Virus record (IMG/VR): IMGVR_UViG_3300020414_000008
Span: 116,770-180,769 of that record
Strand: one strand, 5' to 3'
Origin: a virus
Lineage: Duplodnaviria > Caudoviricetes
DNA length: 64,000 nt
The first letter of the stretch is position 1. The number at the start of each line of letters is the position of its first letter. Shown piece after piece: positions 6,770-57,676 of this stretch. The notes below the pieces were generated by a model. The model was given only the letters and a program-made list of their open reading frames with translations, had not been told where the DNA came from and ran no database searches. A program made the position numbers and the translations under genes.

Positions 6770-6843
6770 GGACCCGTAGCTCAGTTGGATAGAGCATCTG
6801 CCTTCTAAGCAGACGGTCACAGGTTCGAATCCTGTCGGGTTCA
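6770..6843 (+). tRNA. tRNA-Arg(TCT)
   Basis: Cloverleaf; anticodon arm TCTGC-CTTCTAA-GCAGA; GTTCGAATC T-loop; no encoded CCA. Confidence 0.95.
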
Positions 6844-6865
6844 CAATTTATTAAATATATTTTAA

Positions 6866-6873
6866 TATTTATA
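6866..6873 (+). promoter_or_regulatory. putative phage late-promoter motif TATTTATA
   Basis: TATTTAT recurs in intergenic DNA before gene starts (11152, 17491, 21111, 26705, 37235, 45563, 57685, 62353, 63409). Confidence 0.55.
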
Positions 6874-6902
6874 TAATAGTTAACTAAATAAAAACAATTG
6901 TT

Positions 6903-7172
6903 ATGAGTAAAGTTTCAAGAAGATTATACCAAGCCGTAGAGGCAAAGTATACAGCAGATATCATGGACGCAAAAGCAAGACTATCAGTCTACTTTGAGAA
7001 TCCTGTAGCTATTGGGGAACACCCACAACACACAGAAGAAATCGACAAACTTATCGGACAACTTGAAAGTGCAACAGGAAAGTTAGAAACACTTTCTGAG
7101 TACTTTGGAAAAGAATACGGTCACGATATCCCTGTATCTGAATCAGACGAAAAAGAAATCTTAAAAGGATAA
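6903..7172 (+). CDS. T4-like phage hypothetical protein
   Basis: Helical protein with YFENPVAIGEHP motif. Confidence 0.7.
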   Translation: MSKVSRRLYQAVEAKYTADIMDAKARLSVYFENPVAIGEHPQHTEEIDKLIGQLESATGKLETLSEYFGKEYGHDIPVSESDEKEILKG

Positions 7173-7179
7173 ATTCGTA

Positions 7180-7253
7180 GGGGATATAGCTCAGATGGCT
7201 AGAGCACTACGCTTGCACCGTAGGGGTCGTGAGTTCGAGTCTCACTATCTCCA
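7180..7253 (+). tRNA. tRNA-Ala(TGC)
   Basis: Anticodon arm CTACG-CTTGCAC-CGTAG; G3:U70 alanine identity pair; no encoded CCA. Confidence 0.95.
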
Positions 7254-7331
7254 CTATGTTTGTTTGTTTTTGTACATACTTATTATTGATATAAGTGTCT
7301 ATATAAAAACGTTTTAAAAGGAGAAAGTATT

Positions 7332-7961
7332 ATGTCAATCGCAAATCAATTTAAAGGACTACCAATCGAAGAACTAATCGTTGGTCCACTAACAGGTGTG
7401 GCAAAAGGTCAGGCGCAACTAAATGATATTACTTGGAAGTACATCTCTGAGGTTGCATTTGAGCCACCTTCAGGAAGTAGTACCCATCGTAAATCAAGAA
7501 AAATCGATGTTGAACTAAACAGGTATATAAAGGACTCGGAAACAGGTGAATTAAAGTTACAACAAATTCAATCTATGATTCCTATGTTACCGTTAGTACC
7601 ACTACCAACATTAGCAGTTACATCTGCAGATGTTGATTTTACTATGGAAGTTCATGAATCAACCTTGTCTAAGAATACAAGTGATTCATCATTCGAAACA
7701 TCAGTTCAGGCTTCAGGTGGATTTTGGGGAGTTAAGTTTAAAGCCTCTATGACAGGTAAAGTAGCAACTCATAAAGAGAATACAAGAAAAACTGACAACT
7801 CAGCTAAGTACAATGTTAAAGTACACGCAGAACAACTACCACAAACTGAAGGTATGGGTAAACTAAACGATATGTTACACATGATGATGGAACCAACTGT
7901 AGTAGGTATGGAAGACCCAACAACAGGAGTAGCGACACCATCAACAGGTTCAGCAGGATAG
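7332..7961 (+). CDS. DUF2589-family protein
   Basis: QFKGLPIEELIVGPL..AQL N-terminus, PMLPLVPLPTLAV..VDFTMEV, TRKTDNSAKYNV. Confidence 0.75.
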   Translation: MSIANQFKGLPIEELIVGPLTGVAKGQAQLNDITWKYISEVAFEPPSGSSTHRKSRKIDVELNRYIKDSETGELKLQQIQSMIPMLPLVPLPTLAVTSADVDFTMEVHESTLSKNTSDSSFETSVQASGGFWGVKFKASMTGKVATHKENTRKTDNSAKYNVKVHAEQLPQTEGMGKLNDMLHMMMEPTVVGMEDPTTGVATPSTGSAG

Positions 7962-7972
7962 TCCATAACTAA

Positions 7973-8004
7973 TTTGGAAAATTGAAATATTTTTTGTATA
8001 TTAG
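7973..8004 (+). promoter_or_regulatory. host-RNAP-type promoter (TTTGG-N19-TATATTAG)
   Basis: Same consensus and spacing as the other copies. Confidence 0.65.
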
Positions 8005-8036
8005 TAAGAAGTAAAAAAATAAGTTATAGTTAAAGC

Positions 8037-8546
8037 ATGGCTAAGGTTAATTTAGAAGAACTACTTGGTGGTCTACAAGAGGCCTCACAAGTAGTTCTTT
8101 CTATACAAGAAAGACAACACATCAATACCATCTCAAAGTATTTTGATAAAGATGGTACACCAATCACTCAAAAGTTTAGAATCGGTGACAGGGATATAGA
8201 GATACCACTCTACATTCTTGCGGACCATTCATCTGTTGGGTTAGATAAGTTGGATATTGAGTTCCAAGCAAGACTATTGCCAGGAAATACAACTAAACCA
8301 TCAGCACTCAAAAAGAATTTATTACCTATCTTTCAAAGACAAAAACAAAAAGGTAATGACAAGTACAAACATCAGATTAGTAATATCTCAGTTGATGGTA
8401 ACAGTCCTGACAAGGAAGGTGTTGCTAAAATCAGTATACATTTTAAGAAAGATAATAAACCCGAGGCGGTTTCTCGATTAGTAGATATGTTAATAGCGAA
8501 AATGGATGACCCGACTCATAAAGTTATAGAGAATGGCGATTCCTGA
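8037..8546 (+). CDS. DUF2589-family protein (second type)
   Basis: LEELLGGLQEA, IEIPLYILADHSSVGLDKLDIEF, PEAVSRL. Confidence 0.65.
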   Translation: MAKVNLEELLGGLQEASQVVLSIQERQHINTISKYFDKDGTPITQKFRIGDRDIEIPLYILADHSSVGLDKLDIEFQARLLPGNTTKPSALKKNLLPIFQRQKQKGNDKYKHQISNISVDGNSPDKEGVAKISIHFKKDNKPEAVSRLVDMLIAKMDDPTHKVIENGDS

Positions 8547-8814
8547 GTTAGAATTACCAAATAGTAAGAAAGGGAAACCTATGGAAAAAGAGCAAGATAC
8601 TACTAACACAAAGGTAAGTAGTAACGGTAAACAAAGATTACGAATTAGTATGTTTGTAATCTCATGTTTTGCTTTTACATTGGTTTGGATATTCTTATCA
8701 ATGCACTTTGACAAAGGTCTTAACGCAGAATGGAAAGAACTTCTATTATTGTTGTTAGGTGCATTAATCGGAAACTTCAACCAAGTAATTAATTATTGGT
8801 TCAAAGATAAGTAG
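8533..8814 (+). CDS. two-TM membrane protein
   Basis: Two hydrophobic helices; EWKELLLLLLGALIGNF..YWF. Confidence 0.7.
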   Translation: MAIPELELPNSKKGKPMEKEQDTTNTKVSSNGKQRLRISMFVISCFAFTLVWIFLSMHFDKGLNAEWKELLLLLLGALIGNFNQVINYWFKDK

Positions 8815-8815
8815 T

Positions 8816-9019
8816 ATGCCTTTACCATGTCCGAGTTGTACTACACCGTTAGATTTAACTTTAGAATTTATTCTAAAGAATCCTGTATCGGTTTGTCCAC
8901 ATTGTCAAACTGTAATGAACTTCAATGTAGATAAAAGTATACAGAAAGAGTATAATCAGGCGTTACAAAACATAGAGGACGTGAAAAAGAAATACAGTAA
9001 GATAGCTAAGTTTAAATAA
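8816..9019 (+). CDS. zinc-ribbon protein
   Basis: CPSC..CPHC. Confidence 0.7.
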   Translation: MPLPCPSCTTPLDLTLEFILKNPVSVCPHCQTVMNFNVDKSIQKEYNQALQNIEDVKKKYSKIAKFK

Positions 9020-9020
9020 T

Positions 9021-9092
9021 GCTCGGTTCGTCTAACGGTTAGGACTTCAGGTTTTCATCCTGGCAATAGGGGTTCGATTCCCCTACCGAGTA
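9021..9092 (+). tRNA. tRNA-Glu(TTC)
   Basis: Acceptor GCTCGGT/ACCGAGT; anticodon loop TTTTCAT; GTTCGATTC; no encoded CCA. Confidence 0.92.
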
Positions 9093-9104
9093 CAAATAAA
9101 TGTT

Positions 9105-10002: not shown

Positions 10003-10400
10003 TGATGAAACTAATAACAACACACCCAATTAAGAAATCAGATTTAGGACTACACAACAATTTGTTTGGTGGTAAACTTTTAGCATGGATTGATGCTGCA
10101 GGAGCGGCGTTTACTACTGAGTATGTGGATAGTCCGAGACTCGTAACTGTTATGATTGATAAATGTATATTTAAGAAACCTGCTAAAGAAGGACAGTTAC
10201 TAAAGATATATGGAAAGATAAAAGAAGTTGGTAAAACATCTATAACTGCATATCTTGAAGCAAGAGCACATAATGTGTATGACGGTAATCAAAAATTAAT
10301 ATTATCCACGTCAATAAAATTTGTTAGGATTGATGAAGGTGGTGACCCTATTCCAATCCATCAAAGAATCAAGGATAAATTTGAGAAAGAAGAAAAATGA
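10002..10400 (+). CDS. acyl-CoA thioesterase (hotdog fold, YciA-like)
   Basis: NLFGGKLLAWID, LVTV, FKKP, VGKTSI. Confidence 0.85.
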   Translation: MMKLITTHPIKKSDLGLHNNLFGGKLLAWIDAAGAAFTTEYVDSPRLVTVMIDKCIFKKPAKEGQLLKIYGKIKEVGKTSITAYLEARAHNVYDGNQKLILSTSIKFVRIDEGGDPIPIHQRIKDKFEKEEK

Positions 10401-10834
10401 TTTATTGGTTTTACGGACAACCTGGCGCAGGTAAGACAACACTCGGTAACGCATTAGAAGAACGTCTAAACTTCCATCACTCACACCAAAAAACAATCAG
10501 AATAGATGGTGATGAAATGAGAGAAATATTTCAGAACAAAGATTATTCTGAACAAGGTAGACGTAACAACTTAAGAAAGGTTAACGACCTTATTCGTTTC
10601 TTACATCACAAAGGATTCACAGTTATTGTATCAGTTGTTGGTCCATATCAAGATGTAAGAGACGAGATACACGACCTCGACCCTATGATGATTTATACAT
10701 ACACAACTGAAATCAGGGGACGAGAACATTATCATACTGACGACTTAGAGATTGGTAAGTATGATGTTTGGATGAACACAGACAACAGATTAATAGAGGA
10801 TTGTATAAATGAAATACTCACTTTTCGTAGGTAG
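10397..10834 (+). CDS. adenylylsulfate (APS) kinase-like P-loop kinase
   Basis: YWFYGQPGAGKTT, IDGDEMR, DYSEQGR..N; CysC-like but short. Confidence 0.75.
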   Translation: MIYWFYGQPGAGKTTLGNALEERLNFHHSHQKTIRIDGDEMREIFQNKDYSEQGRRNNLRKVNDLIRFLHHKGFTVIVSVVGPYQDVRDEIHDLDPMMIYTYTTEIRGREHYHTDDLEIGKYDVWMNTDNRLIEDCINEILTFRR

Positions 10835-11147
10835 ATATCAACCATGGCACAATGGACATAGATGGTTAATAGACCAAAGATTAAATGAAGGTAAGAACGT
10901 TTGTATAGCAGTTAGAGACGAACACCCTGACGAAACCCACGAGTGGTACAGTGGAAAGATTGTACACAATATCAAAGCAGAATTAAACGATTTAGTAAAC
11001 GAAGGTAGGGTGAAAGTTATAGTGATACCTGACATTGAATCAATCAATTATGGTAGGACAGTTGGATACGAAGTAATCGAACACGAACCACCAAAAGATA
11101 TCTACAACATATCAGCATCAAAGATTAGAAAGGAAATGGGAAAATAG
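10809..11147 (+). CDS. minimal HxGH nucleotidyltransferase
   Basis: GRYQPWHNGH and ISASKIR motifs. Confidence 0.8.
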   Translation: MKYSLFVGRYQPWHNGHRWLIDQRLNEGKNVCIAVRDEHPDETHEWYSGKIVHNIKAELNDLVNEGRVKVIVIPDIESINYGRTVGYEVIEHEPPKDIYNISASKIRKEMGK

Positions 11148-19269: not shown

Positions 19270-19392
19270 ATGGGATATTCAAAATCACTCTACCAAGCAA
19301 TTCACAAAGATACCTTAGTGAAGTATCTAATGAGTAGAGATAGAAAAATTAAATCACTACAAAAACAAATAGACGACTTAAAAACAAAGTAA
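19270..19392 (+). CDS. hypothetical peptide (40 aa)
   Basis: First ORF after the promoter; TAATG-coupled to the HAD gene. Confidence 0.5.
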   Translation: MGYSKSLYQAIHKDTLVKYLMSRDRKIKSLQKQIDDLKTK

Positions 19393-19850
19393 TGAGTAAA
19401 ATAGTAATTTTTGATTTAGATGGAACTTTGGCTGATATAGACCAAAGAAGAGCAGCCGCTATCAACATGGGTGGTGGTAAGATGGATTGGGATTTCTTTT
19501 TCGACCCAAAGAATGTAGCAATGGATGCTCCGAATATGTCTGTAATCACTACGGCACAAACATTCAAAAAACAAGGTTTCAAAATCTTTATATTTAGTGG
19601 TAGATTAGACAATAGTAAAGATGTTACTATTAATTGGTTAAAATATTGGAAAGTACCATTTGATAAACTTCAAATGAGACCTAATAATAAAAAAGATAAA
19701 TTCACACCCGATGATGTTCTAAAACAAAATTGGTTAAATGATTTAGATAAGAAAGATATCCTTTGTGTATTTGACGATAGACAAAAGGTAGTAGATATGT
19801 GGAGAGCTAATGGTATCTCTTGTTTTCAGGTTGCGCCTGGTAATTTTTAA
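19392..19850 (+). CDS. HAD phosphatase, T4 PseT (PNK) 3'-phosphatase-domain-like
   Basis: IFDLDGTLA, FSGR, LQMRP..D..LK, VFDDR..VVDMWR..G..CFQV. Confidence 0.85.
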   Translation: MSKIVIFDLDGTLADIDQRRAAAINMGGGKMDWDFFFDPKNVAMDAPNMSVITTAQTFKKQGFKIFIFSGRLDNSKDVTINWLKYWKVPFDKLQMRPNNKKDKFTPDDVLKQNWLNDLDKKDILCVFDDRQKVVDMWRANGISCFQVAPGNF

Positions 19851-20145: not shown

Positions 20146-21075
20146 ATGACAAACTTAGGTTACGCATGTATTAACATGACATTGGGTTCTCAGAAACCCA
20201 AGGTTACCACAAACCGTGGTATGATTAAACGAACCTTCCTTAGTGAAGGTGTAAAGTATTCTTCAGAACTTGCTCTACAGAATACACGAGACTTGATTGA
20301 GGTTATCAAGTGGAATCACAAAAACGGATTCAAATTGTTTCGTATGACTTCCAACCTCATCCCTTGGTCATCGGAGTTCCCACTCAGTTCAATGCCTGAC
20401 TATCGTAAAATTTCTATTCTACTGAATGGTGCAGGTAATCTTGCTGATAAGTATGGACAACGTATAACGTCACATCCTGGCCCTTTCAATGTTCTTGTAT
20501 CACCAAACGAGAAAGTCGTTCAGAACACGATTACGGACCTTTCTATACACGGTGAGATATTTGACTTGATGGGTCTTAGTAGAACTCCTTACAACAAAAT
20601 CAATATTCACTGTAATGGTGTCTATGGTGACAAACAATCTGCGATGGATAGATTCTGTAAGAACTTTGAGAAGTTACCCGAGTCTGTACAAACTCGATTG
20701 ACTGTAGAAAACGATGACAAAGCAAGTATGTATTCAGTAAAAGACTTAATGTATATACACGAAAGAATTGGTATTCCTATTGTGTTCGATTATCATCACC
20801 ATACATTCAATACAGGTGGTCTGACCGAACAAGAAGCATTAGAACTTGCTATGTCTACTTGGGGTGATATCAAACCTATTGTACATTACTCTGAGTCAAG
20901 AACTCTTGAAGATGAGACTGCAAAACCACAAGCTCACTCTGATTTTATATATTCTGAAATCAACACATATGGTCACGACCTTGATATTGTTGTTGAAGCT
21001 AAGAAAAAAGAACTAACTGTTCAGAAATATCTTTCCATTTATGGTAGACACGGAAAGGGCATAGTTGGGGGATAG
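20146..21075 (+). CDS. uvsE: UV DNA damage endonuclease (UvsE/UvdE)
   Basis: LGYACIN, RITSHPGPF, INIH, RLTVENDD, VFDYHHH, HYSESR, AHSD, EAKKKE. Confidence 0.95.
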   Translation: MTNLGYACINMTLGSQKPKVTTNRGMIKRTFLSEGVKYSSELALQNTRDLIEVIKWNHKNGFKLFRMTSNLIPWSSEFPLSSMPDYRKISILLNGAGNLADKYGQRITSHPGPFNVLVSPNEKVVQNTITDLSIHGEIFDLMGLSRTPYNKINIHCNGVYGDKQSAMDRFCKNFEKLPESVQTRLTVENDDKASMYSVKDLMYIHERIGIPIVFDYHHHTFNTGGLTEQEALELAMSTWGDIKPIVHYSESRTLEDETAKPQAHSDFIYSEINTYGHDLDIVVEAKKKELTVQKYLSIYGRHGKGIVGG

Positions 21076-22448: not shown

Positions 22449-23105
22449 ATGAGTGAAACACTATACGGCGAAGAGTTTAACGAAGAAAACTTAGATAACG
22501 AGTTAGACAAAGCAGAGAGAGTACAGAAGTCAGAATCAACGGAGAACGATTTGGATAGAAAATACTTCAGACAGTTTGATTATGGTATTGACACTAAAGA
22601 TAACGTGATTATCATTGAAGGTGAAATACAATCAGGACTTACATTTGATATTATAGCTAAAACGAGATTACTAAACAATTTAGCAGGAGAAGACATTAAG
22701 ACATTTAATATCTTATTGAATTCGCCAGGTGGTGATGTTATAGAAACACTTGGGTTAATCGATTTTATGAAATCTCAAGAAAAGTATGGTGTCAAGTTTA
22801 ATGTAATAGTAAGAGGTGGAGCAATGTCAGCAGCAGCACTCTTGTTGACTTGTGCTACAGGAACCCGAATGGTTTCTAAACACTCTAAGATTATGGTACA
22901 CCAATTGTCTACAATAGTAGTAGGTAAGTTGAGTGATGTTAAATCTAACGCTAAATTTAGTGAGGAGTTAGAAAAAGAGTGTAACGTGTTGATGGCAGAA
23001 CACAGTAAGAAGGACCAAGAGTATTGGGAAAATATTTCTTCAACAGATTACTTCATGTCTTCTGACAAAGCACTTGAATTAGGAATAATAGATAAAATAA
23101 TATAA
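22449..23105 (+). CDS. clpP: ClpP-family serine protease
   Basis: LNSPGGDV, AMSAA (Ser), IMVHQ (His), DYFMS..ALELGIID (Asp). Confidence 0.88.
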   Translation: MSETLYGEEFNEENLDNELDKAERVQKSESTENDLDRKYFRQFDYGIDTKDNVIIIEGEIQSGLTFDIIAKTRLLNNLAGEDIKTFNILLNSPGGDVIETLGLIDFMKSQEKYGVKFNVIVRGGAMSAAALLLTCATGTRMVSKHSKIMVHQLSTIVVGKLSDVKSNAKFSEELEKECNVLMAEHSKKDQEYWENISSTDYFMSSDKALELGIIDKII

Positions 23106-23106
23106 A

Positions 23107-23889
23107 ATGACAAATTTCTTTACAGCAGAGGAACTTAAAAGTAATTATGAAAAGTTCCGAAAACTAATCAACAAATCCTTTACAGGTGAGAGATTAGAAA
23201 AACTAAACAAAATGTATGACCACTTTGAAGATAGAATTATCTACACACCTGCGTCATCATTTGAACACTTCCACAATTCATTTCCTGGCGGATACATCGA
23301 CCATGTACTTAGAGTGACAAGAAACGCACTTAAGTTATATGATATGTATTTGGAATTAGGTATGATAGAGGAAGGTGAGATATCTAAAGAATCCGTAATC
23401 TTTTCAGCTATACATCACGACTTAGGTAAGTTGGGTTCTGTTGACGCAGACCACTATCTAAAAAATGATTCAGAATGGCATAGAAAGAATCAAGGTAAAA
23501 TGTATAAGTTAAATCCAAGTAACCATTATATGGATACACACGATAGAACTTTCTTTCACCTTATACACTTTGGAATTAAATTAACTGAAGAGGAATTCTT
23601 AGGTATTAGATTAACAGATGGGGTTTATGATGAATCAAGTAGAGAATACTTGAGACAGTTTAATAAAGACAAAGTTTTGAAAACAATGTTACCACATATC
23701 TTACATCAAGCAGATATGATGGCATCTAAGTTTGAATTCCAAAGATGGAAAAAAAGTTCTGACAAATCAAAAGGAACTCGTAATCCAAATGGAAGACCGT
23801 CAACCCAATCTAAGTTAAGTAACGCATTCACAAGTACAGAAAATAAAGTAAATGTATTTGACGCGTTTAAAGATATAGTAGAAGATTAA
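23107..23889 (+). CDS. HD-domain phosphohydrolase (YhaM-like)
   Basis: PAS..H..GGYIDH, IHHDLGK, LHQADM. Confidence 0.85.
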   Translation: MTNFFTAEELKSNYEKFRKLINKSFTGERLEKLNKMYDHFEDRIIYTPASSFEHFHNSFPGGYIDHVLRVTRNALKLYDMYLELGMIEEGEISKESVIFSAIHHDLGKLGSVDADHYLKNDSEWHRKNQGKMYKLNPSNHYMDTHDRTFFHLIHFGIKLTEEEFLGIRLTDGVYDESSREYLRQFNKDKVLKTMLPHILHQADMMASKFEFQRWKKSSDKSKGTRNPNGRPSTQSKLSNAFTSTENKVNVFDAFKDIVED

Positions 23890-53767: not shown

Positions 53768-56700
53768 ATGGGACAAAAAATTAAACAATGGGTAGTAGAG
53801 TCTTTATTGACTGAACAGACTAACAAAACAGTAGTAACTTATGTTGGAAGATTTCACCCATTCCATTCAGGTCACAACGCGGTTTACCAACATTTGGTAA
53901 AAAAGTTCGGTAAACAAAATGTACATATTGGAACCTCTAATAAAGTACAATTACCAAAGTCGCCTTTTAACTTTAAAGAAAAAGTTCAAATCATGACCAA
54001 GATGTTTGGTATCCCAAAAAGTAATATACATCAAGTAAAAAATCCATATAGACCTGACGAGATTTTAAAAAAGTTTGACGATAAGAAAACGGCATTTGTA
54101 ACTGTTGTTGGTGAAAAAGATAAAGGTAGATTGGGTATGGGTAAAGGAAGATACTTTCAACCATACAAAGGAAATACTGATTTACCTATGAAAGACAACG
54201 GATATGTTTATATCGTACCACCACAAGGTAGAGGTATTTCAGGAACAGAAGTTCGTCAAGGAATAGGTAGAGGTGAAGAATCACAAAAGAAAGCATTCTT
54301 TAAAAAAGTATATGGAAAGTTTGACCCAAAGATATTTAATCTACTTACAAAAAAAATAACAAAAACTGAATCTGTAATGGAATCGTTTTTTGAATCAATT
54401 AATTTTAAAAGTTTAATTGAAGGTTCTTTATATGGTGCAGACGCAGGTGAACCTGATACTATTTATGTACCAGCTGGAAAAAAAAGAGTATTAGGAACTC
54501 AGAAAAGTAGTCAAAAAGACGAACCTTGGATGGATTCAATGGGATATACTCAAATGCATTTTCCAACAGCAGATTCAATATATTCTAAAGACTCTAAAGG
54601 TACATCAGATGAAGCCGAATACTACGCAATCAAAAAAATAAAAAAGAATCCAGCGTTAAAAGAACCTGTACCAAGTGATGATTTTGTAACATCGGGTATT
54701 GGTGAAAAGGGTGAAGAGTTGCATAAAATAGATGAAGCGTCTGTCTTAAATTTAGGAAAAGGTGTAGTAGATGATGGACCAGGCGCATTTTATGGTGACA
54801 TGAAAACTTTTAAATCCGAGATGGAAGAAGTAATTGGTAAACTTGGATGGAACATTGTCACATATCTTATGGACGAAGATGATATGGAATCATTTACAGA
54901 TACCGAATATCCTAATGGGCCAGGTAGATATCCCGTTTCATTCTTTCCACAAGGTAAAGCAGGTCTTGACGCATTAGCAGTAAGATATGGTGATGACCTA
55001 CAAGGACTACCAGCATACAGAAAGTGGGCAAATCATATCAAAGGTGTTGCATTACAATTAGGATATGAGTTCTTAAACTTCTTAGAACCAAAAGACCAAG
55101 ATAATGTACTTTCAGATGAACCTAAGAAAGAAGAAGATACAACAGGTACATTAAAAGAATCTATTGAAAGATATGATTTAATAAATGAGGCAAAACAATT
55201 ACTGAAGATACCATCTGATATTCAAAAAATTCACAAAGCATTTAAAAAGAATGGTAAGAAACTTTATGTAGTGGGTGGAGCAGTAAGAGACGCAATACTT
55301 GGTAAGTCACCAAAGGATTATGATTTAGCAACAGACGCAAAACCTGATGAAGTTCTAAAGATTGCAAAAGACACAGGAATGAAAACTGTTGAGGTTGGTA
55401 AATCATTCGGAGTTGTGATGGTTGGTGGACATGAGATTGCAACATTTAGAAAAGATATCGGTAAAGGTAGAAGACCATCGTCAGTTGATTATACAGATAT
55501 AGAAGGTGATGTTAGAAGAAGAGATTTAACTATCAACGCATTATTCTATGATATTGATAAAAAAGAAATCGTAGATTTAGTTGGTGGTATCGCAGACCTT
55601 AAAAAGAAAAACATTAGAACAGTAGGTAAAGCATCAGAAAGATTTGATGAAGACCCACTTAGAAAATTAAGAGCGTTAAGATTCCAAGCAAGTACAGGTG
55701 GTAAACTTGATAAAGAACTACACGACGCACTTCAAAGTGACCCATCACTAAAAGGTGTAAGTGCTGAAAGAATCAGAGATGAGTTTGTTAAATCTATAAA
55801 GAAAGCAAAGAATCCTTCTAAGTATTTAGAGATGTGTGACAAACTTGGATTTACACAACAGATACTTCCAAATCTAAAAGTATCAAAACCATATCCAAAT
55901 GATAACGATTATATTTTATTCTTATCATCAATATTATCTAAAAACTCACCCGTAGTATTATCAAAAGTATTAAACAAACTTACATACTCAAACGAAGAAA
56001 AAAATAATATAGTATTCTTAGTATCACTTCAGTCATTTAGACCTGATGATATTGTTGTATATAAAAACGCGCAAAACAAAACATCTTTATCAGATGACCA
56101 AATAAAAAAGTTTGGAAAGTCAATTGGTAAAGATATGGATAAGTTTGTTAAATTCAATTTATCAGTTGGTGGTAGAGATGTACCTAAAGATATTAAAGGT
56201 CCACAGATAGGATTATGGATTAAGAATAAAGAAAAAGAAAACTTCTTAGATGAGAAGAAAAAACCAAAGAAGAAAGTAAAAAGTAAAAAAGCATCTCTAA
56301 TGAAACAAAAGAGAAAGTTTTATTTAAAACCTGATAACGCAAAAAAAGAACTTGATAGTTCAGGTAGAGAAGGACAAGTACTTTCTAAAAAAGTTGGTAA
56401 ACAAAGACTGTATTTTGTTTCCTATGTTGGAAATGTAGGAACACAGAATATATTTGATGAAGGTATGATTATGGAAGGTGGAGCATATGGACATATGAAT
56501 CACCCATTTGATACCGAAATGAATTTAACATTTGGTGATTTAAAAACAATCATTTCAAATGCTCTAAATGGTAAATTAGAATTTACAAGAGAAAAAACAG
56601 ATGGACAAGCATTAGCAATATCATATCGTAAAGATAGAGGTATTATTGCAGCTAGAAATCAAGGACACCTCAAAAATAGAGGACTTAACGCATTAGACAT

Positions 56701-57676
56701 TAAAGGTGTCTCAGATAAGTTTGCTAATAGGGGTGGGTTGACCGATGCGTATAATTTCGCTATGAGAGACTTAGAATCAGCCATTTCTAAACTTTCCGAC
56801 GCGCAAAGACAAAAAATATTCAAGGATGGCTCAAAATTTATGAACCTTGAAGTCATATGGCCGGAGTCAGTAAACGTAATACCATATGGTCAACCTCTAT
56901 TAGTATTCCACGGAACAATGGAATACGGTGAAGATGGAAAAGCAATAGGTGCAGATACTTCTGACGCAAAAGTACTTGCGGGTATGATTAAACAAGTAAA
57001 CGCAGATGTGCAAAGTCAGTATACAATAAAAGGTCCACCTGTTATTAATTTACCAAAAACTAAAGAACTGTCTAAAATGCAATCTAAGTTTTTCTCACAA
57101 GTAAGTAAACTTCAAAAAGAATTTAAACTAAAAGATTCAAATGGAGTTGCAGACTATCATCAAGCATGGTGGAGTAATTTTGTAGATAAAAACTCACCAT
57201 CTACTTTAGATAACAAAACCAAAATGGGATTAGTTAAAAGATGGGCATTTTATGACAAGAAGTTTAGATTAGATAAGAAAAATATTTCTGATTCTAAAAC
57301 TTTAGATTGGGCAAAGAAGACAGACAAACAAGACCACGCTAAAATGGCTAAACAAAATATTAGACCATTTGAAGATATATTCTTAGGTGTAGGTGCGGAA
57401 GTTTTATCATTTATGTCATCAGCATTAACAGTAAATCCTGATAAAGCACTCCGTGACATTCAGAAACAATTAGATAAAACTATCAAGGATGTAAACAAGA
57501 GTGGTGATGAGAAAAAGATTGCAAAATTAAAAATGGAATTAGAACGATTAAATAGTATTGGTGGTAGAAATAAGATAGTACCAAATGAAGGTATTGTATT
57601 TACATATAAAGGTAACACATACAAGTTAACAGGTACTTTTGCACCACTTAATCAAATACTTGGACTTTTCTATTAA
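53768..57676 (+). CDS. multidomain protein: HxGH nucleotidyltransferase + CCA-adding enzyme + RNA-ligase-like domain
   Basis: GRFHPFHSGH; VGGAVRD..DYDLAT, RRDLTINAL, EDPLR.LRALRF; EKTDG..NLEVI..EGIVF..YKL. Confidence 0.8.
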   Translation: MGQKIKQWVVESLLTEQTNKTVVTYVGRFHPFHSGHNAVYQHLVKKFGKQNVHIGTSNKVQLPKSPFNFKEKVQIMTKMFGIPKSNIHQVKNPYRPDEILKKFDDKKTAFVTVVGEKDKGRLGMGKGRYFQPYKGNTDLPMKDNGYVYIVPPQGRGISGTEVRQGIGRGEESQKKAFFKKVYGKFDPKIFNLLTKKITKTESVMESFFESINFKSLIEGSLYGADAGEPDTIYVPAGKKRVLGTQKSSQKDEPWMDSMGYTQMHFPTADSIYSKDSKGTSDEAEYYAIKKIKKNPALKEPVPSDDFVTSGIGEKGEELHKIDEASVLNLGKGVVDDGPGAFYGDMKTFKSEMEEVIGKLGWNIVTYLMDEDDMESFTDTEYPNGPGRYPVSFFPQGKAGLDALAVRYGDDLQGLPAYRKWANHIKGVALQLGYEFLNFLEPKDQDNVLSDEPKKEEDTTGTLKESIERYDLINEAKQLLKIPSDIQKIHKAFKKNGKKLYVVGGAVRDAILGKSPKDYDLATDAKPDEVLKIAKDTGMKTVEVGKSFGVVMVGGHEIATFRKDIGKGRRPSSVDYTDIEGDVRRRDLTINALFYDIDKKEIVDLVGGIADLKKKNIRTVGKASERFDEDPLRKLRALRFQASTGGKLDKELHDALQSDPSLKGVSAERIRDEFVKSIKKAKNPSKYLEMCDKLGFTQQILPNLKVSKPYPNDNDYILFLSSILSKNSPVVLSKVLNKLTYSNEEKNNIVFLVSLQSFRPDDIVVYKNAQNKTSLSDDQIKKFGKSIGKDMDKFVKFNLSVGGRDVPKDIKGPQIGLWIKNKEKENFLDEKKKPKKKVKSKKASLMKQKRKFYLKPDNAKKELDSSGREGQVLSKKVGKQRLYFVSYVGNVGTQNIFDEGMIMEGGAYGHMNHPFDTEMNLTFGDLKTIISNALNGKLEFTREKTDGQALAISYRKDRGIIAARNQGHLKNRGLNALDIKGVSDKFANRGGLTDAYNFAMRDLESAISKLSDAQRQKIFKDGSKFMNLEVIWPESVNVIPYGQPLLVFHGTMEYGEDGKAIGADTSDAKVLAGMIKQVNADVQSQYTIKGPPVINLPKTKELSKMQSKFFSQVSKLQKEFKLKDSNGVADYHQAWWSNFVDKNSPSTLDNKTKMGLVKRWAFYDKKFRLDKKNISDSKTLDWAKKTDKQDHAKMAKQNIRPFEDIFLGVGAEVLSFMSSALTVNPDKALRDIQKQLDKTIKDVNKSGDEKKIAKLKMELERLNSIGGRNKIVPNEGIVFTYKGNTYKLTGTFAPLNQILGLFY

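What the first reader, a model, noticed from the sequence alone, without database searches (positions are those of the whole stretch)
53768..57676. Three nucleotidyl-transfer chemistries in one protein: possible injected tRNA-repair machine
Seen: an N-terminal HxGH domain; a class II CCA-adding domain (about 55190-56250) with DYD, RRD and EDPLR intact; and a C-terminal domain (56477-57676) with ligase-like motifs I EKTDG, III NLEVI, IIIa LVFH, IV EGIVF and V YKL. Elsewhere in the window are a PseT-type 3'-phosphatase (19392), an HD hydrolase (23107) and CCA-less tRNAs. Established: T4 repairs anticodon-nuclease cuts with PNK plus RNA ligase, and CCA enzymes repair 3' ends. Inference: an end-healing, sealing and CCA-restoring kit against tRNA-targeting defences, with the CCA domain inserted between protease motifs. 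The ligase call rests on short motifs.
Basis: partly seen in the sequence, partly recalled or inferred. Interest (0 to 1): 0.75.

Follow-up and report, generated by a model that had tools for sequence, protein, structure and literature searches.

The report
Protease-punctuated phage RNA-repair polyprotein
A marine T4-like phage strings an NAD-synthase-like enzyme, a tRNA tail-adding enzyme and an unrecognised RNA-ligase-shaped enzyme into one protein whose parts meet exactly at sites like those cut by its head protease, so it is probably a cut-apart enzyme kit carried in the virus head, though neither cutting, packaging nor any activity has been tested.

Summary
ORF 53768-57676 (1302 aa) has three nucleotidyl-transfer domains:
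- a class II CCA/poly(A)-type head and neck with motifs A-E intact;

That domain heads a large metagenomic family (1836 clusters at 50% identity). Only 3 of 50,697 phage genomes carry it.

New here: near-identical relatives lack the CCA module and other modules. Every indel border coincides with an L/I-x-E site. All nine strict sites lie in the leader or between modules. The genome encodes a T4 gp21-type protease, and its capsid and scaffold proteins start with the same motif.

Best reading (about 0.5): a head-packaged polyprotein, cut into separate enzymes and injected to restore tRNA ends and possibly NAD+.

Caveats:
- CCA addition versus poly(A) addition is unresolved.
- No 5'-kinase was found.
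- The genome lacks any DNA ligase.
- Sequence-profile links to ligases are not significant.

The scan reported the same architecture earlier on other genomes.

The parts
53768..57676 (+). Whole ORF, 1302 aa plus stop. It starts 9 nt after the stop of the 2722-aa collagen-like ORF, and I saw no promoter-like motif in that gap.
   Evidence: The same protein cluster is seen on 19 metagenomic contigs.
53768..53815 (+). N-terminal leader MGQKIKQWVVE|SLLTE|, aa 1-16. It is a candidate capsid-targeting propeptide with two L/V-x-E sites.
   Evidence: It resembles this phage's capsid (MNTQSLLNE|S), scaffold (MAKSDLLKE|A) and core (MKLKDLLNE|Q) N-termini.
53816..54382 (+). HIGH-superfamily, NMNAT-like nucleotidyltransferase (aa 17-205) with GRFHPFHSGH and ISGTEVR.
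54383..54421 (+). Junction cluster with three sites: VME|S, FFE|S, LIE|G (after aa 205, 209 and 218).
   Evidence: The indel border against P0157 falls at aa 217/218.
54422..54736 (+). Optional cassette 'ins1' (aa 219-323, YGADAGEP...GYTQMHFPTAD...), ending HKIDE|A. Function unknown.
   Evidence: Absent from the 90-94% identical P0157; present in P0182, P0208 and P0017. No Pfam or PHROG hit. Model pLDDT below 50.
54737..55189 (+). Conserved middle module (aa 324-474, VDDGPGAFYGDM...), ending TLKE|S and LINE|A. Function unknown.
   Evidence: Detected in most of the relatives sampled. No family hit. Model pLDDT below 50.
55190..56254 (+). Optional class II tRNA nucleotidyltransferase cassette (aa 475-829), CCA-adding type: head, neck and a short body, no tail domain. 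It ends NFLDE|K.
   Evidence: Pfam PF01743 E 4.8e-31 and PF12627. PHROG 2244 E 3e-60. PDB CCA-adding enzymes 6ibp and 1miv, E about 1e-30. Motifs A-E located. Absent in P0157 and P0166.
56255..56476 (+). Optional lysine-rich cassette (aa 830-903), ending IFDE|GMIME|.
   Evidence: Present or absent independently of the CCA cassette among close relatives.
56477..57673 (+). RNA-ligase-fold covalent-nucleotidyltransferase-like domain (aa 904-1302). It starts GGAYGHMNHPFD; the predicted nucleophile is K943 in EKTDG. A helical insert of roughly 170-200 aa lies between motifs IIIa and IV. There is no OB domain.
19392..19850 (+). Stand-alone PNKP-type HAD 3'-phosphatase. It has no kinase domain. Possible end-healing partner.
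   Evidence: PF25109, E 3.2e-28. PHROG polynucleotide kinase families, E 2.5e-36.
23107..23889 (+). Weakly HD-like phosphohydrolase. Any link to the system is speculative.
   Evidence: PHROG 28876, E 4.6e-12. Pfam HD E 0.005, below cut-off.
6770..6844 (+). tRNA-Arg(TCT) without an encoded CCA.
7180..7254 (+). tRNA-Ala(TGC) without an encoded CCA.
9021..9093 (+). tRNA-Glu(TTC) without an encoded CCA.

Best explanation
The gene encodes a modular polyprotein of a 181-kb marine T4-like myovirus. Proposed path:
1. It is made together with the upstream giant collagen-like protein.
2. A short N-terminal leader draws it into the prohead.
3. The phage's gp21-type prohead protease cuts it after Glu at L/I/V-x-E sites that punctuate it.
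4. This releases separate enzymes: an NMNAT-like adenylyltransferase (about 190 aa), two small proteins of unknown function, a tail-less class II tRNA nucleotidyltransferase (about 355 aa), a lysine-rich peptide, and a 399-aa RNA-ligase-fold enzyme whose Lys943 would form the nucleotidyl-enzyme intermediate.
5. The pieces are ejected with the DNA, so they act before phage genes are expressed.

Proposed roles:
- The ligase-like enzyme reseals cut RNA, with tRNA the likeliest target.
- The CCA-type enzyme rebuilds tRNA 3' ends and completes the phage's own CCA-less tRNAs.
- The NMNAT-like enzyme remakes NAD+ or another adenylylated cofactor.

Shown: the domain folds, motif conservation, cassette swapping at L-x-E sites, and a gp21 homologue in the genome. 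Inferred: cleavage, packaging, injection, substrates and all catalytic activities.
For: Domains:
- NMNAT-like HIGH domain.
- Class II head and neck with motifs A-E.
- Ligase fold with invariant KxDG, RN, E, (F)H, EGxxF and K. T4 Rnl2 aligns EKIHG (K35) to EKTDG and YVFDI (F119, D120) to LVFHG.

RNA-repair context in relatives:
- 31 of 36 long relatives carry the HIGH domain; in 7 of the 269 relatives typed the order is reversed.
- 4 carry AAA_33/Zeta-type P-loop kinases, 4 carry HD domains and 4 carry CCA heads.
- The CCA head occurs at a different position in P0090.

Protease punctuation:
- P0157 is 90-94% identical but lacks aa 218-320 and 475-825. Every combination of presence and absence of ins1, CCA and K-rich occurs.
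- 4 of 4 indel borders lie within 4 residues of an [LIVMF]xE site (p about 1.5e-4).
- There are 9 strict [LIVMF]xE[GAS] sites against 3.9 expected, and none within 907 domain residues.
- Across 140 representatives the motif is depleted in the ligase domain (77 observed, 178 expected) and enriched upstream (487 against 246). 108 of 140 have it immediately before GG.

The protease and its known rules:
- The genome encodes a Peptidase_S77 (gp21) homologue, E 6e-34.
- Its capsid, scaffold and core proteins begin with LL(N/K)E| motifs.
- T4 gp21 cuts after L/I-X-E, and 10-residue leaders target internal proteins to the head (PMC9026906).

Precedent and context:
- In T4-like cyanophage S-CREM2, cytidylyltransferase gp154 (leader FLTE|A) was found in the virion by mass spectrometry (PMC10665884). 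hhalign to this HIGH domain gives E 5e-5.
- The only cultured carrier, Mel-JY01, also has a gp21 homologue and an IIAE|GG junction.
- All three phage tRNA genes lack CCA.
- No other RNA ligase or RtcB is in the genome.
Against: - There are no proteomic or biochemical data for this protein or any close relative.
- L-x-E is short. Conserved linkers could serve recombination or flexibility rather than cleavage.
- Depletion of the motif inside a homologous domain is not phylogenetically independent evidence.
- Motif V has a single Lys, and motif IIIa has His where Rnl2 has Asp.
- No 5'-kinase is recognisable in this genome.
- The CCA module lacks the tail domain and scores nearly as well against PcnB.
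- The role of an NMNAT-like enzyme in RNA repair is unexplained.
- Expression timing is unknown, and no T4-type TATAAATA late promoter was found nearby.
Confidence: 0.5

Rival explanations
1. It is an uncleaved, cytoplasmic multifunctional RNA-repair enzyme, built like bacterial Pnkp or fungal Trl1. The L-x-E-rich segments are merely flexible linkers and recombination joints that allow module shuffling. Nothing is packaged or injected.
For: Multidomain repair enzymes that stay whole are well known. Trl1 and Pnkp are among the structural matches. The HIGH and ligase domains stay together in either order, which is the pattern expected of domains that work in cis. No late promoter or virion data were found.
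Against: The junction motif matches this phage's own capsid and scaffold maturation sites. It is absent from 907 domain residues yet clustered, often doubled, at every border. Stand-alone homologues carry 10-20-residue leaders ending L-x-E|GG, which linkers do not explain. A related HIGH enzyme with such a leader is in the S-CREM2 virion.
Confidence: 0.25
2. The C-terminal domain is the phage's replicative or repair DNA ligase (a nick sealer), replacing the missing T4 gp30. The fused NMNAT-like domain supplies NAD+ or ATP-derived cofactor. The CCA module is an unrelated passenger.
Against: There is no OB domain: the protein ends about 13 residues after motif V. RNA ligases outrank DNA ligases in both structure searches. 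The fused partners in relatives are RNA-end enzymes, namely CCA, HD and kinase. As I recall, many marine T4-like phages manage without gp30; this was not checked here.
Confidence: 0.1
3. The middle module is not a CCA-adding enzyme. It is a poly(A) polymerase or a partial (A-adding or CC-adding) enzyme that tags host or phage RNAs.
For: NCBIfam PcnB (164 bits) scores almost as well as CCA (173 bits), and both are below cut-off. Only the head and neck align, and the tail domain is missing. Poly(A) polymerase structures match at E 1e-25.
Against: The best matches by sequence are CCA-adding enzymes and the PHROG tRNA nucleotidyltransferase family, E 3e-60. The EDPLR template motif and the other motifs are intact. 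Sister architectures carry the CCA-plus-HD arrangement of the multifunctional CCA repair enzyme. All three phage tRNA genes lack CCA.
Confidence: 0.12
4. The ligase-like domain is catalytically dead. It serves as a conserved structural or anchoring module that carries variable cargo into the virion.
For: It is the one constant part of a family whose N-terminal parts vary widely. One relative (P0087) has HNTDG instead of EKTDG.
Against: Every catalytic-motif residue is invariant across 18 homologues at 38-68% identity and nearly invariant across 36 more. That pattern indicates selection for chemistry, not only for shape.
Confidence: 0.05

Closest known systems
T4 tRNA repair pathway (Pnkp plus Rnl1; also Rnl2 and the Rnl5 NgrRnl / REL1 clade)
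   Same: Phage-encoded ligase-fold enzyme with motifs I, Ia, III, IIIa, IV and V and no OB domain. Best structural matches are REL1, NgrRnl, Rnl2, Trl1 and Rnl1. A PNKP-type phosphatase is encoded in the same genome, and kinase modules are fused in relatives.
   Different: - No significant sequence match to any ligase family.
- A helical insert of roughly 170-200 aa lies between motifs IIIa and IV.
- There is a conserved GGAYGHMxHPFD N-terminal motif.
- Motif V has a single Lys.
- The domain is fused to NMNAT-like and CCA modules.
- No kinase was found in this genome.
- T4's repair enzymes are made after infection, not carried in the virion.
T4 internal proteins and Alt: capsid-targeting leaders and gp21 processing at L/I-X-E (PMC9026906)
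   Same: T4-like phage with a gp21 homologue. There is a short N-terminal leader ending in L-x-E followed by a small residue. The same motif occurs on this phage's capsid and scaffold proteins.
   Different: Here many enzymes would be released from one precursor by internal cuts. The cargo is nucleotidyltransferases rather than small basic proteins or an ADP-ribosyltransferase. Neither cleavage nor packaging has been shown.
Phage polyvalent proteins (Iyer et al. 2017, PMC5512222)
   Same: Several unrelated enzymatic domains sit in one phage polypeptide, predicted to be delivered with the DNA. Domains are exchanged in a mix-and-match way.
   Different: That survey does not mention CCA-adding enzymes, and it states that RNA ligases were never seen with its 2H domains. 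The hub domains of that network (MuF, zincin peptidase, ArdC-N) are absent here. Here the modules are separated by prohead-protease-type sites.
Class II CCA-adding enzymes (for example Bacillus-type 1miv, Planococcus 6ibp) and stand-alone phage tRNA nucleotidyltransferases (PHROG 2244)
   Same: Head and neck domains with motifs A-E, including DxD, RRD and EDxxR.
   Different: It is embedded as an optional cassette in a polyprotein. The body is short and the tail is missing. It is below the NCBIfam equivalog cut-offs.
NadM/archaeal-type NMN adenylyltransferases and the virion-associated cytidylyltransferase gp154 of cyanophage S-CREM2 (PMC10665884)
   Different: Below the NMNAT family cut-offs. 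No Nudix partner. Substrate unknown. Fused to a ligase-like domain.
Pfam DUF6267 (PF19782), an uncharacterised viral family
   Same: The protein-language-model neighbours of a stand-alone homologue are viral clusters of similar length (355-404 aa), in which about a quarter of members carry DUF6267.
   Different: No HMM match in this protein, in 18 homologues, in the genome or in Mel-JY01. The link is a lead only.

Membership tests
Covalent nucleotidyltransferase superfamily (ATP/NAD ligases, capping enzymes) | Motif I KxDG, with the lysine as nucleophile | tested here: met
   EKTDG at aa 942-946. K, D and G are invariant in 18 homologues. K is at least 90% conserved, and D and G invariant, in 36 long relatives. 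It aligns to K35 of T4 Rnl2.
Covalent nucleotidyltransferase superfamily (ATP/NAD ligases, capping enzymes) | Motifs III (E), IIIa (aromatic), IV (EG) and V (K) in order on antiparallel strands | tested here: met
   E1028, F1047-H1048, E1274-G1275 and K1286 are invariant. They lie on strands 144-151, 165-174, 396-401 and 404-408 of the model. The spacing from E to F/H is 20 residues, as in Rnl2 (E99 to D120). Motif V has one Lys, not KxK.
Covalent nucleotidyltransferase superfamily (ATP/NAD ligases, capping enzymes) | Nucleotidyltransferase fold | tested here: met
Covalent nucleotidyltransferase superfamily (ATP/NAD ligases, capping enzymes) | Formation of a covalent enzyme-NMP intermediate | not testable with these tools
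   Needs a label-transfer assay with a K943A control.
Rnl2-type RNA ligase family (Pfam PF09414) | Significant sequence or profile match to the family | tested here: not met
   No Pfam hit at E up to 10 for this domain. One of 18 homologues hits at E 0.11. hhalign against a T4 Rnl2 profile gives E 0.15. It works like the family but cannot be filed in it.
ATP-dependent DNA ligases | OB-fold domain following motif V | tested here: not met
   The protein ends about 13 residues after motif V. The model has only one short helix after the motif V strand.
Class II tRNA nucleotidyltransferase (CCA-adding) | Head and neck with motifs A (GGxVRD...DxD), B (RRD), C, D (EDxxR) and E | tested here: met
   All were located. 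PF01743 at 108 bits and PF12627 at 28 bits are above their cut-offs.
Class II tRNA nucleotidyltransferase (CCA-adding) | Full-length match to a CCA equivalog, including body and tail | tested here: not met
   The best NCBIfam CCA model scores 173 bits against a cut-off of 290. Only model positions 11-232 of 396 align.
Class II tRNA nucleotidyltransferase (CCA-adding) | Specific C-C-A addition rather than poly(A) | not testable with these tools
   PcnB scores 164 bits against 173 for CCA. An enzyme assay is needed.
NMN adenylyltransferase (NadM/archaeal type) | GxFxPxHxGH and ISxTxxR ATP motifs on a Rossmann-like HIGH fold | tested here: met
NMN adenylyltransferase (NadM/archaeal type) | Family-level HMM score | tested here: not met
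   NF002243 scores 28 bits against a cut-off of 127. Only about the first 55 residues align.
T4-type head-internal, protease-processed proteins | gp21-family prohead protease in the same genome | tested here: met
   PF03420, E 6.3e-34, at genome 7511-7951.
T4-type head-internal, protease-processed proteins | L/I-X-E sites in an N-terminal leader and at fragment borders | tested here: met
   The motif definition is from PMC9026906.
T4-type head-internal, protease-processed proteins | Presence of processed fragments in virions | not testable with these tools
   Only a distant precedent exists: S-CREM2 gp154 in the virion proteome.
Polyvalent proteins (Iyer et al. 2017) | Disparate enzymatic domains in one phage polypeptide | tested here: met
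Polyvalent proteins (Iyer et al. 2017) | Link to the hub domains of that network (MuF, zincin peptidase, ArdC-N) | tested here: inconclusive
   None in this protein. One SprT-like and one DUF6782 peptidase hit occur among 36 relatives. Not examined systematically.

The most novel reading that the evidence does not exclude
A large, almost wholly uncultured family of T4-like and huge aquatic phages packs interchangeable enzyme cassettes into the capsid as one precursor. The head protease cuts it into free enzymes, which are injected as an immediate counter-defence kit. Its constant member is a previously unrecognised clade of RNA ligase, with an inserted helical domain, that works with an NMNAT-like partner. 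The kit restores cleaved tRNAs, clipped CCA tails and depleted NAD+ before any phage gene is expressed.
Probability: 0.35. Interest if true: 0.85.

Novelty: new variant of a known kind. Interest (0 to 1): 0.7.

Why it matters
If correct, three things follow.

1. It would add a new RNA-ligase clade that no family database currently names. The clade has about 1800 clusters at 50% identity but is present in only 3 of 50,697 sequenced phage genomes. That could be useful enzymology.

2. It would show that T4-like phages can deliver whole repair and salvage enzymes, not just small inhibitors, inside the capsid. They would do so by concatenating them between prohead-protease sites, a viral polyprotein strategy not described for tailed phages.

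3. It would tie three host immune strategies to one pre-loaded counter-measure: anticodon nucleases, tRNA-tail cleavage such as Cas12a3 (PMC12851939), and NAD+ depletion.

The cassette pattern also gives a practical rule for finding other injected phage proteins: look for modules flanked by L-x-E. One cultured carrier, Microcystis phage Mel-JY01, makes the idea directly testable.

Tried and rejected
Searches that gave nothing useful:
- Pfam, PHROG and NCBIfam on the C-terminal domain and on the two unknown modules: no usable hit.
- Profile of the C-domain against PDB sequences: only a weak match of the helical insert to ribosomal protein eS6 (E 2.4e-4). I treat it as probably compositional.
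- hhalign of the family against T4 Rnl2, as a single sequence and as a 15-sequence profile: E 0.13-0.15, so not significant. Only the register is informative.
- DUF6267 as the family's name: suggested by language-model neighbours but with no HMM match in this protein, 18 homologues, this genome or Mel-JY01. No paper mentions it.

Models and tools that fell short:
- Structure model of aa 1-474: only the HIGH domain folded, and aa 202-474 stayed below pLDDT 50. The two unknown modules therefore remain uninterpreted.
- Complex prediction, intended for HIGH domain against ligase domain, was not available. The 'atlas' fold library was not available. The first protein-atlas call failed.

Context checks:
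- T4-type late promoter TATAAATA: not found near the gene. Expression timing is undetermined.
- ClpP-like protease at 22449-23105 as the processing enzyme: set aside, because the genome has a true gp21-family protease next to the scaffold and capsid genes.
- Search for a canonical partner kinase or ligase in the genome: no Rnl1, Rnl2, RtcB or DNA ligase. There is only a weak small kinase at 10397-10834.
- The control genomes for the Rnl1 model did not ring, so its absence is weakly supported.
- Literature search for Mel-JY01: nothing held.

Full report
**What is there.** The window is the last 64 kb of a 180,769-bp viral record, estimated 94% complete. Earlier scan notes also call it a marine T4-like phage. 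ORF 53768-57676 (+) encodes 1302 aa. It starts 9 nt after the stop of a 2722-aa collagen-like ORF, with no obvious promoter in that gap. Its 90% cluster has 14 member sequences and is seen on 19 metagenomic contigs. The ORF is therefore real and not an assembly artefact.

**Three nucleotidyl-transfer domains (observation confirmed).**

2. *Class II nucleotidyltransferase, aa 475-829.*
   - It matches PolyA_pol head (E 4.8e-31), PolyA_pol_RNAbd, PHROG 2244 'tRNA nucleotidyltransferase' (E 3e-60) and solved CCA-adding enzymes (E about 1e-30).
   - Motifs A-E are all intact: GGAVRD...DYD, RRRD, DLVGGIADL, EDPLR, AERIRDEFVK.
   - Only the head and neck align to full-length models. The CCA and PcnB models score 173 and 164 bits, both under their cut-offs.
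   - CCA addition is therefore likely but not separable from poly(A) or partial addition by sequence.

3. *C-terminal domain, aa 904-1302.*
   - It has no Pfam, PHROG or NCBIfam match.
   - An exhaustive search found 1836 representative clusters (601 at E below 1e-30). The domain usually sits at the C-terminus of proteins of 400 to 1930 aa.
   - In an alignment of 18 mostly stand-alone homologues (38-68% identity), the invariant residues are K-D-G of EKTDG, A-R-N, E of NLEVI, H of LVFHG, E-G-F of EGIVF and K of YKLTG.
   - The AlphaFold model (pLDDT 87, pTM 0.83) puts these residues on the strands expected for ligase motifs I, III, IIIa, IV and V. A helical insert of roughly 170-200 residues lies between IIIa and IV, and nothing but a short helix follows motif V.
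   - Foldseek's PDB list is almost entirely ligases and capping enzymes, but at weak E-values (1e-2 and above). In the viral structure library, annotated RNA ligases appear at E 1e-3 to 3e-2.
   - hhalign against T4 Rnl2 is not significant (E 0.13-0.15). The only alignment it finds pairs EKTDG with EKIHG (K35, the known nucleophile) and LVFHG with YVFDI (F119, D120).

I conclude that the fold and active-site layout of a covalent nucleotidyltransferase are well supported. An RNA-ligase role is favoured. Membership of any named ligase family is not supported.

**What the relatives say.** Among 36 long relatives scanned with Pfam:
- 31 carry the HIGH domain;
- 11 carry DUF5661;
- 4 each carry a class II head, an AAA_33/Zeta-type P-loop kinase, or an HD domain.

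In seven of the 269 relatives typed the order is reversed, with the ligase first and HIGH second. In P0090 the CCA head lies N-terminal to HIGH. The HIGH-ligase pair is thus the conserved core. Kinase, HD and CCA modules are the usual companions of RNA end-healing, and they were added repeatedly. Only 3 of 50,697 phage genome records contain the ligase-like domain: Microcystis phage Mel-JY01 and two uncultured huge phages.

**Cassette structure and protease-type punctuation.**
- P0157 (845 aa) is 90-94% identical to this protein in every shared segment, yet it lacks aa 218-320 and aa 475-825, the CCA module.
- P0166 (765 aa) lacks both of these and also the lysine-rich segment.
- Typing 269 relatives with the six modules of this protein found every combination of presence and absence of ins1, CCA and K-rich (alignment).
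- All nine occurrences of [LIVMF]-x-E-[GAS] lie in the N-terminal leader (after aa 11) or at module borders (after aa 205, 209, 218, 323, 464, 474, 898, 903). None lies in the 907 residues of the three folded domains.
- Shuffling gives 3.9 expected sites (P of 9 or more = 0.015). All four indel borders lie within 4 residues of an [LIVMF]-x-E site (random placement p about 1.5e-4).
- Across 140 representatives the motif is under-represented in the ligase domain (77 observed, 178 expected) and over-represented upstream (487 against 246). 108 of 140 have it immediately before the GGAxGH start of the domain. Stand-alone homologues carry 10-20-residue leaders ending L-x-E|GG.
- The depletion figure is not phylogenetically independent. 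The enrichment in the unrelated N-terminal parts is more independent.

**Why this points to the prohead protease.**
- The genome encodes a Peptidase_S77 (T4 gp21) homologue (E 6e-34), next to the scaffold and major capsid genes.
- The products of those genes begin MAKSDLLKE|A, MNTQSLLNE|S and MKLKDLLNE|Q.
- T4 gp21 cuts after L/I-X-E. Ten-residue N-terminal capsid-targeting sequences load internal proteins into the prohead, and these proteins are later injected (PMC9026906).
- Mel-JY01 also has a gp21 homologue. Its 639-aa HIGH-ligase protein starts MGKLINILLSE| and has IIAE|GG at the domain junction.
- As experimental precedent, the T4-like cyanophage S-CREM2 has a 286-aa 'cytidylyltransferase' (gp154, leader FLTE|A) that was detected in purified virions by mass spectrometry (PMC10665884). 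It is related to the HIGH domain here (hhalign E 5e-5 over 140 columns).

**Context for function.**
- The phage's only three tRNA genes all lack an encoded CCA.
- A stand-alone PNKP-type 3'-phosphatase is at 19392-19850.
- The '23107 HD hydrolase' is only weakly HD-like.
- I found no Rnl1, Rnl2 or RtcB, and also no ATP- or NAD-dependent DNA ligase. The Rnl1 control did not ring, so that one absence is weakly supported.
- The only kinase-like hit is a weak one at 10397-10834. In this phage the end-healing set is therefore incomplete. A DNA-sealing role for the ligase-like domain cannot be dismissed. It is disfavoured by the missing OB domain, by the ranking of RNA ligases over DNA ligases, and by the RNA-type fusion partners.

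**Most likely mechanism (inferred).**
1. Late synthesis, together with the upstream giant protein.
2. Leader-dependent incorporation into the prohead core.
3. gp21-type cleavage at the L-x-E clusters into about six pieces.
4. Ejection with the DNA.
5. Immediate action on host-inflicted damage: resealing of cut tRNA (ligase-like enzyme, via Lys943-NMP), rebuilding of 3' CCA ends (class II enzyme) and re-synthesis of NAD+ or a related adenylylated compound (NMNAT-like enzyme).

Defences that cut tRNA anticodon loops or tRNA tails, or that deplete NAD+, are known (for example PMC12851939; NAD+ reconstitution by phages is cited). I give this composite reading about 0.5. The main rival, at about 0.25, is an uncleaved cytoplasmic multifunctional repair enzyme.

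**Comparison and novelty.** The parts resemble known things: T4 Pnkp/Rnl repair, class II CCA enzymes, NadM NMNAT, T4 internal proteins, and polyvalent proteins. The following do not appear in the literature I could search:
- the ligase-like clade itself, with its helical insert, GGAYGHMxHPFD start and lack of any family match;
- its obligate pairing with an NMNAT-like domain;
- the concatenation of exchangeable enzyme cassettes between prohead-protease-type sites.

The polyvalent-protein survey has no CCA enzymes and notes no RNA-ligase association.

The scan itself has already reported the same architecture on other genomes, with the same reading (e1-5758952, e1-5644021). I had written down the protease-site hypothesis before seeing those notes. 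This window is therefore a further member, not a first sighting within the scan. I class it as a new variant of a known kind and rate interest at 0.7.

**Limits.**
- No activity, cleavage or packaging has been tested.
- The two unknown modules (aa 219-323 and 324-474) did not fold confidently.
- The complex-prediction tool and the atlas structure library were unavailable.

Noticed in passing
window 60123-62333 (+), 736 aa: A second ORF with nine [LIVMF]xE[GAS] sites, mostly doubled (DVNE|SLNE|A, LIGE|SVNE|A, GFNE|GVNE|G). It has no family annotation apart from an unknown PHROG at its C-terminus. It looks like another protease-punctuated precursor.
   Followed up: partly
window 10397-10834 and 10809-11147 (+): Two overlapping small ORFs match the N-terminal (positions 4-88) and C-terminal (134-229) halves of one PHROG 'kinase' family, phrog_10255. 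The second also resembles the start of a HIGH nucleotidyltransferase. This may be a split or frameshifted kinase-HIGH fusion.
   Followed up: partly
window 56890-57300 (helical insert of the ligase-like domain, about profile positions 162-309): The family profile gives weak but repeated matches (E 2e-4 to 1.5e-3) to the C-terminal helical part of eukaryotic ribosomal protein eS6. This could be compositional, or it could hint at an RNA-binding helix.
   Followed up: no
window 22449-23105 (+): A ClpP-family protease gene (PF00574, E 5e-28) sits in the late region, in addition to the gp21-type prohead protease near genome position 7.5 kb. The phage therefore encodes two candidate maturation proteases.
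   Followed up: no
whole genome (G000): No ATP- or NAD-dependent DNA ligase, Rnl1/Rnl2 or RtcB was detected in this 94%-complete T4-like genome.
   Followed up: yes
window 20146-21075 (+): A full-length UvdE UV-damage endonuclease (PF03851, E 5e-63) lies next to the PNKP-type phosphatase gene.
   Followed up: no
L006 (Synechococcus phage S-CREM2) 4013-4726: gp156 was listed in that phage's virion proteome. From its sequence it looks like a small Pol-beta-type nucleotidyltransferase (GG...DIDL), although I ran no family search on it. It has a leader MKKLISE|. Together with gp154 (HIGH enzyme), it mirrors as separate genes the HIGH plus Pol-beta pairing that is fused here.
   Followed up: no
relatives P0087 and one member of alignment A3: One relative has HNTDG in place of EKTDG, so the predicted nucleophile is lost. 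Another relative carries an intein (Intein_splicing/Hint) within the polyprotein.
   Followed up: no
window 6770-9093: All three tRNA genes end with discriminator A, then one C, then A or T. One of the three CCA residues may therefore be templated and the rest added after transcription.
   Followed up: partly
BFVD hit A0A0M6VVW4 (Synechococcus phage S-PM2, 591 aa): The 'cytidyltransferase-like' protein of the cultured cyanophage S-PM2 matches the ligase-domain model structurally (Foldseek E 3e-5, 13% identity), although BLAST does not find it. The family may therefore reach well-studied cyanomyoviruses in a diverged form.
   Followed up: partly
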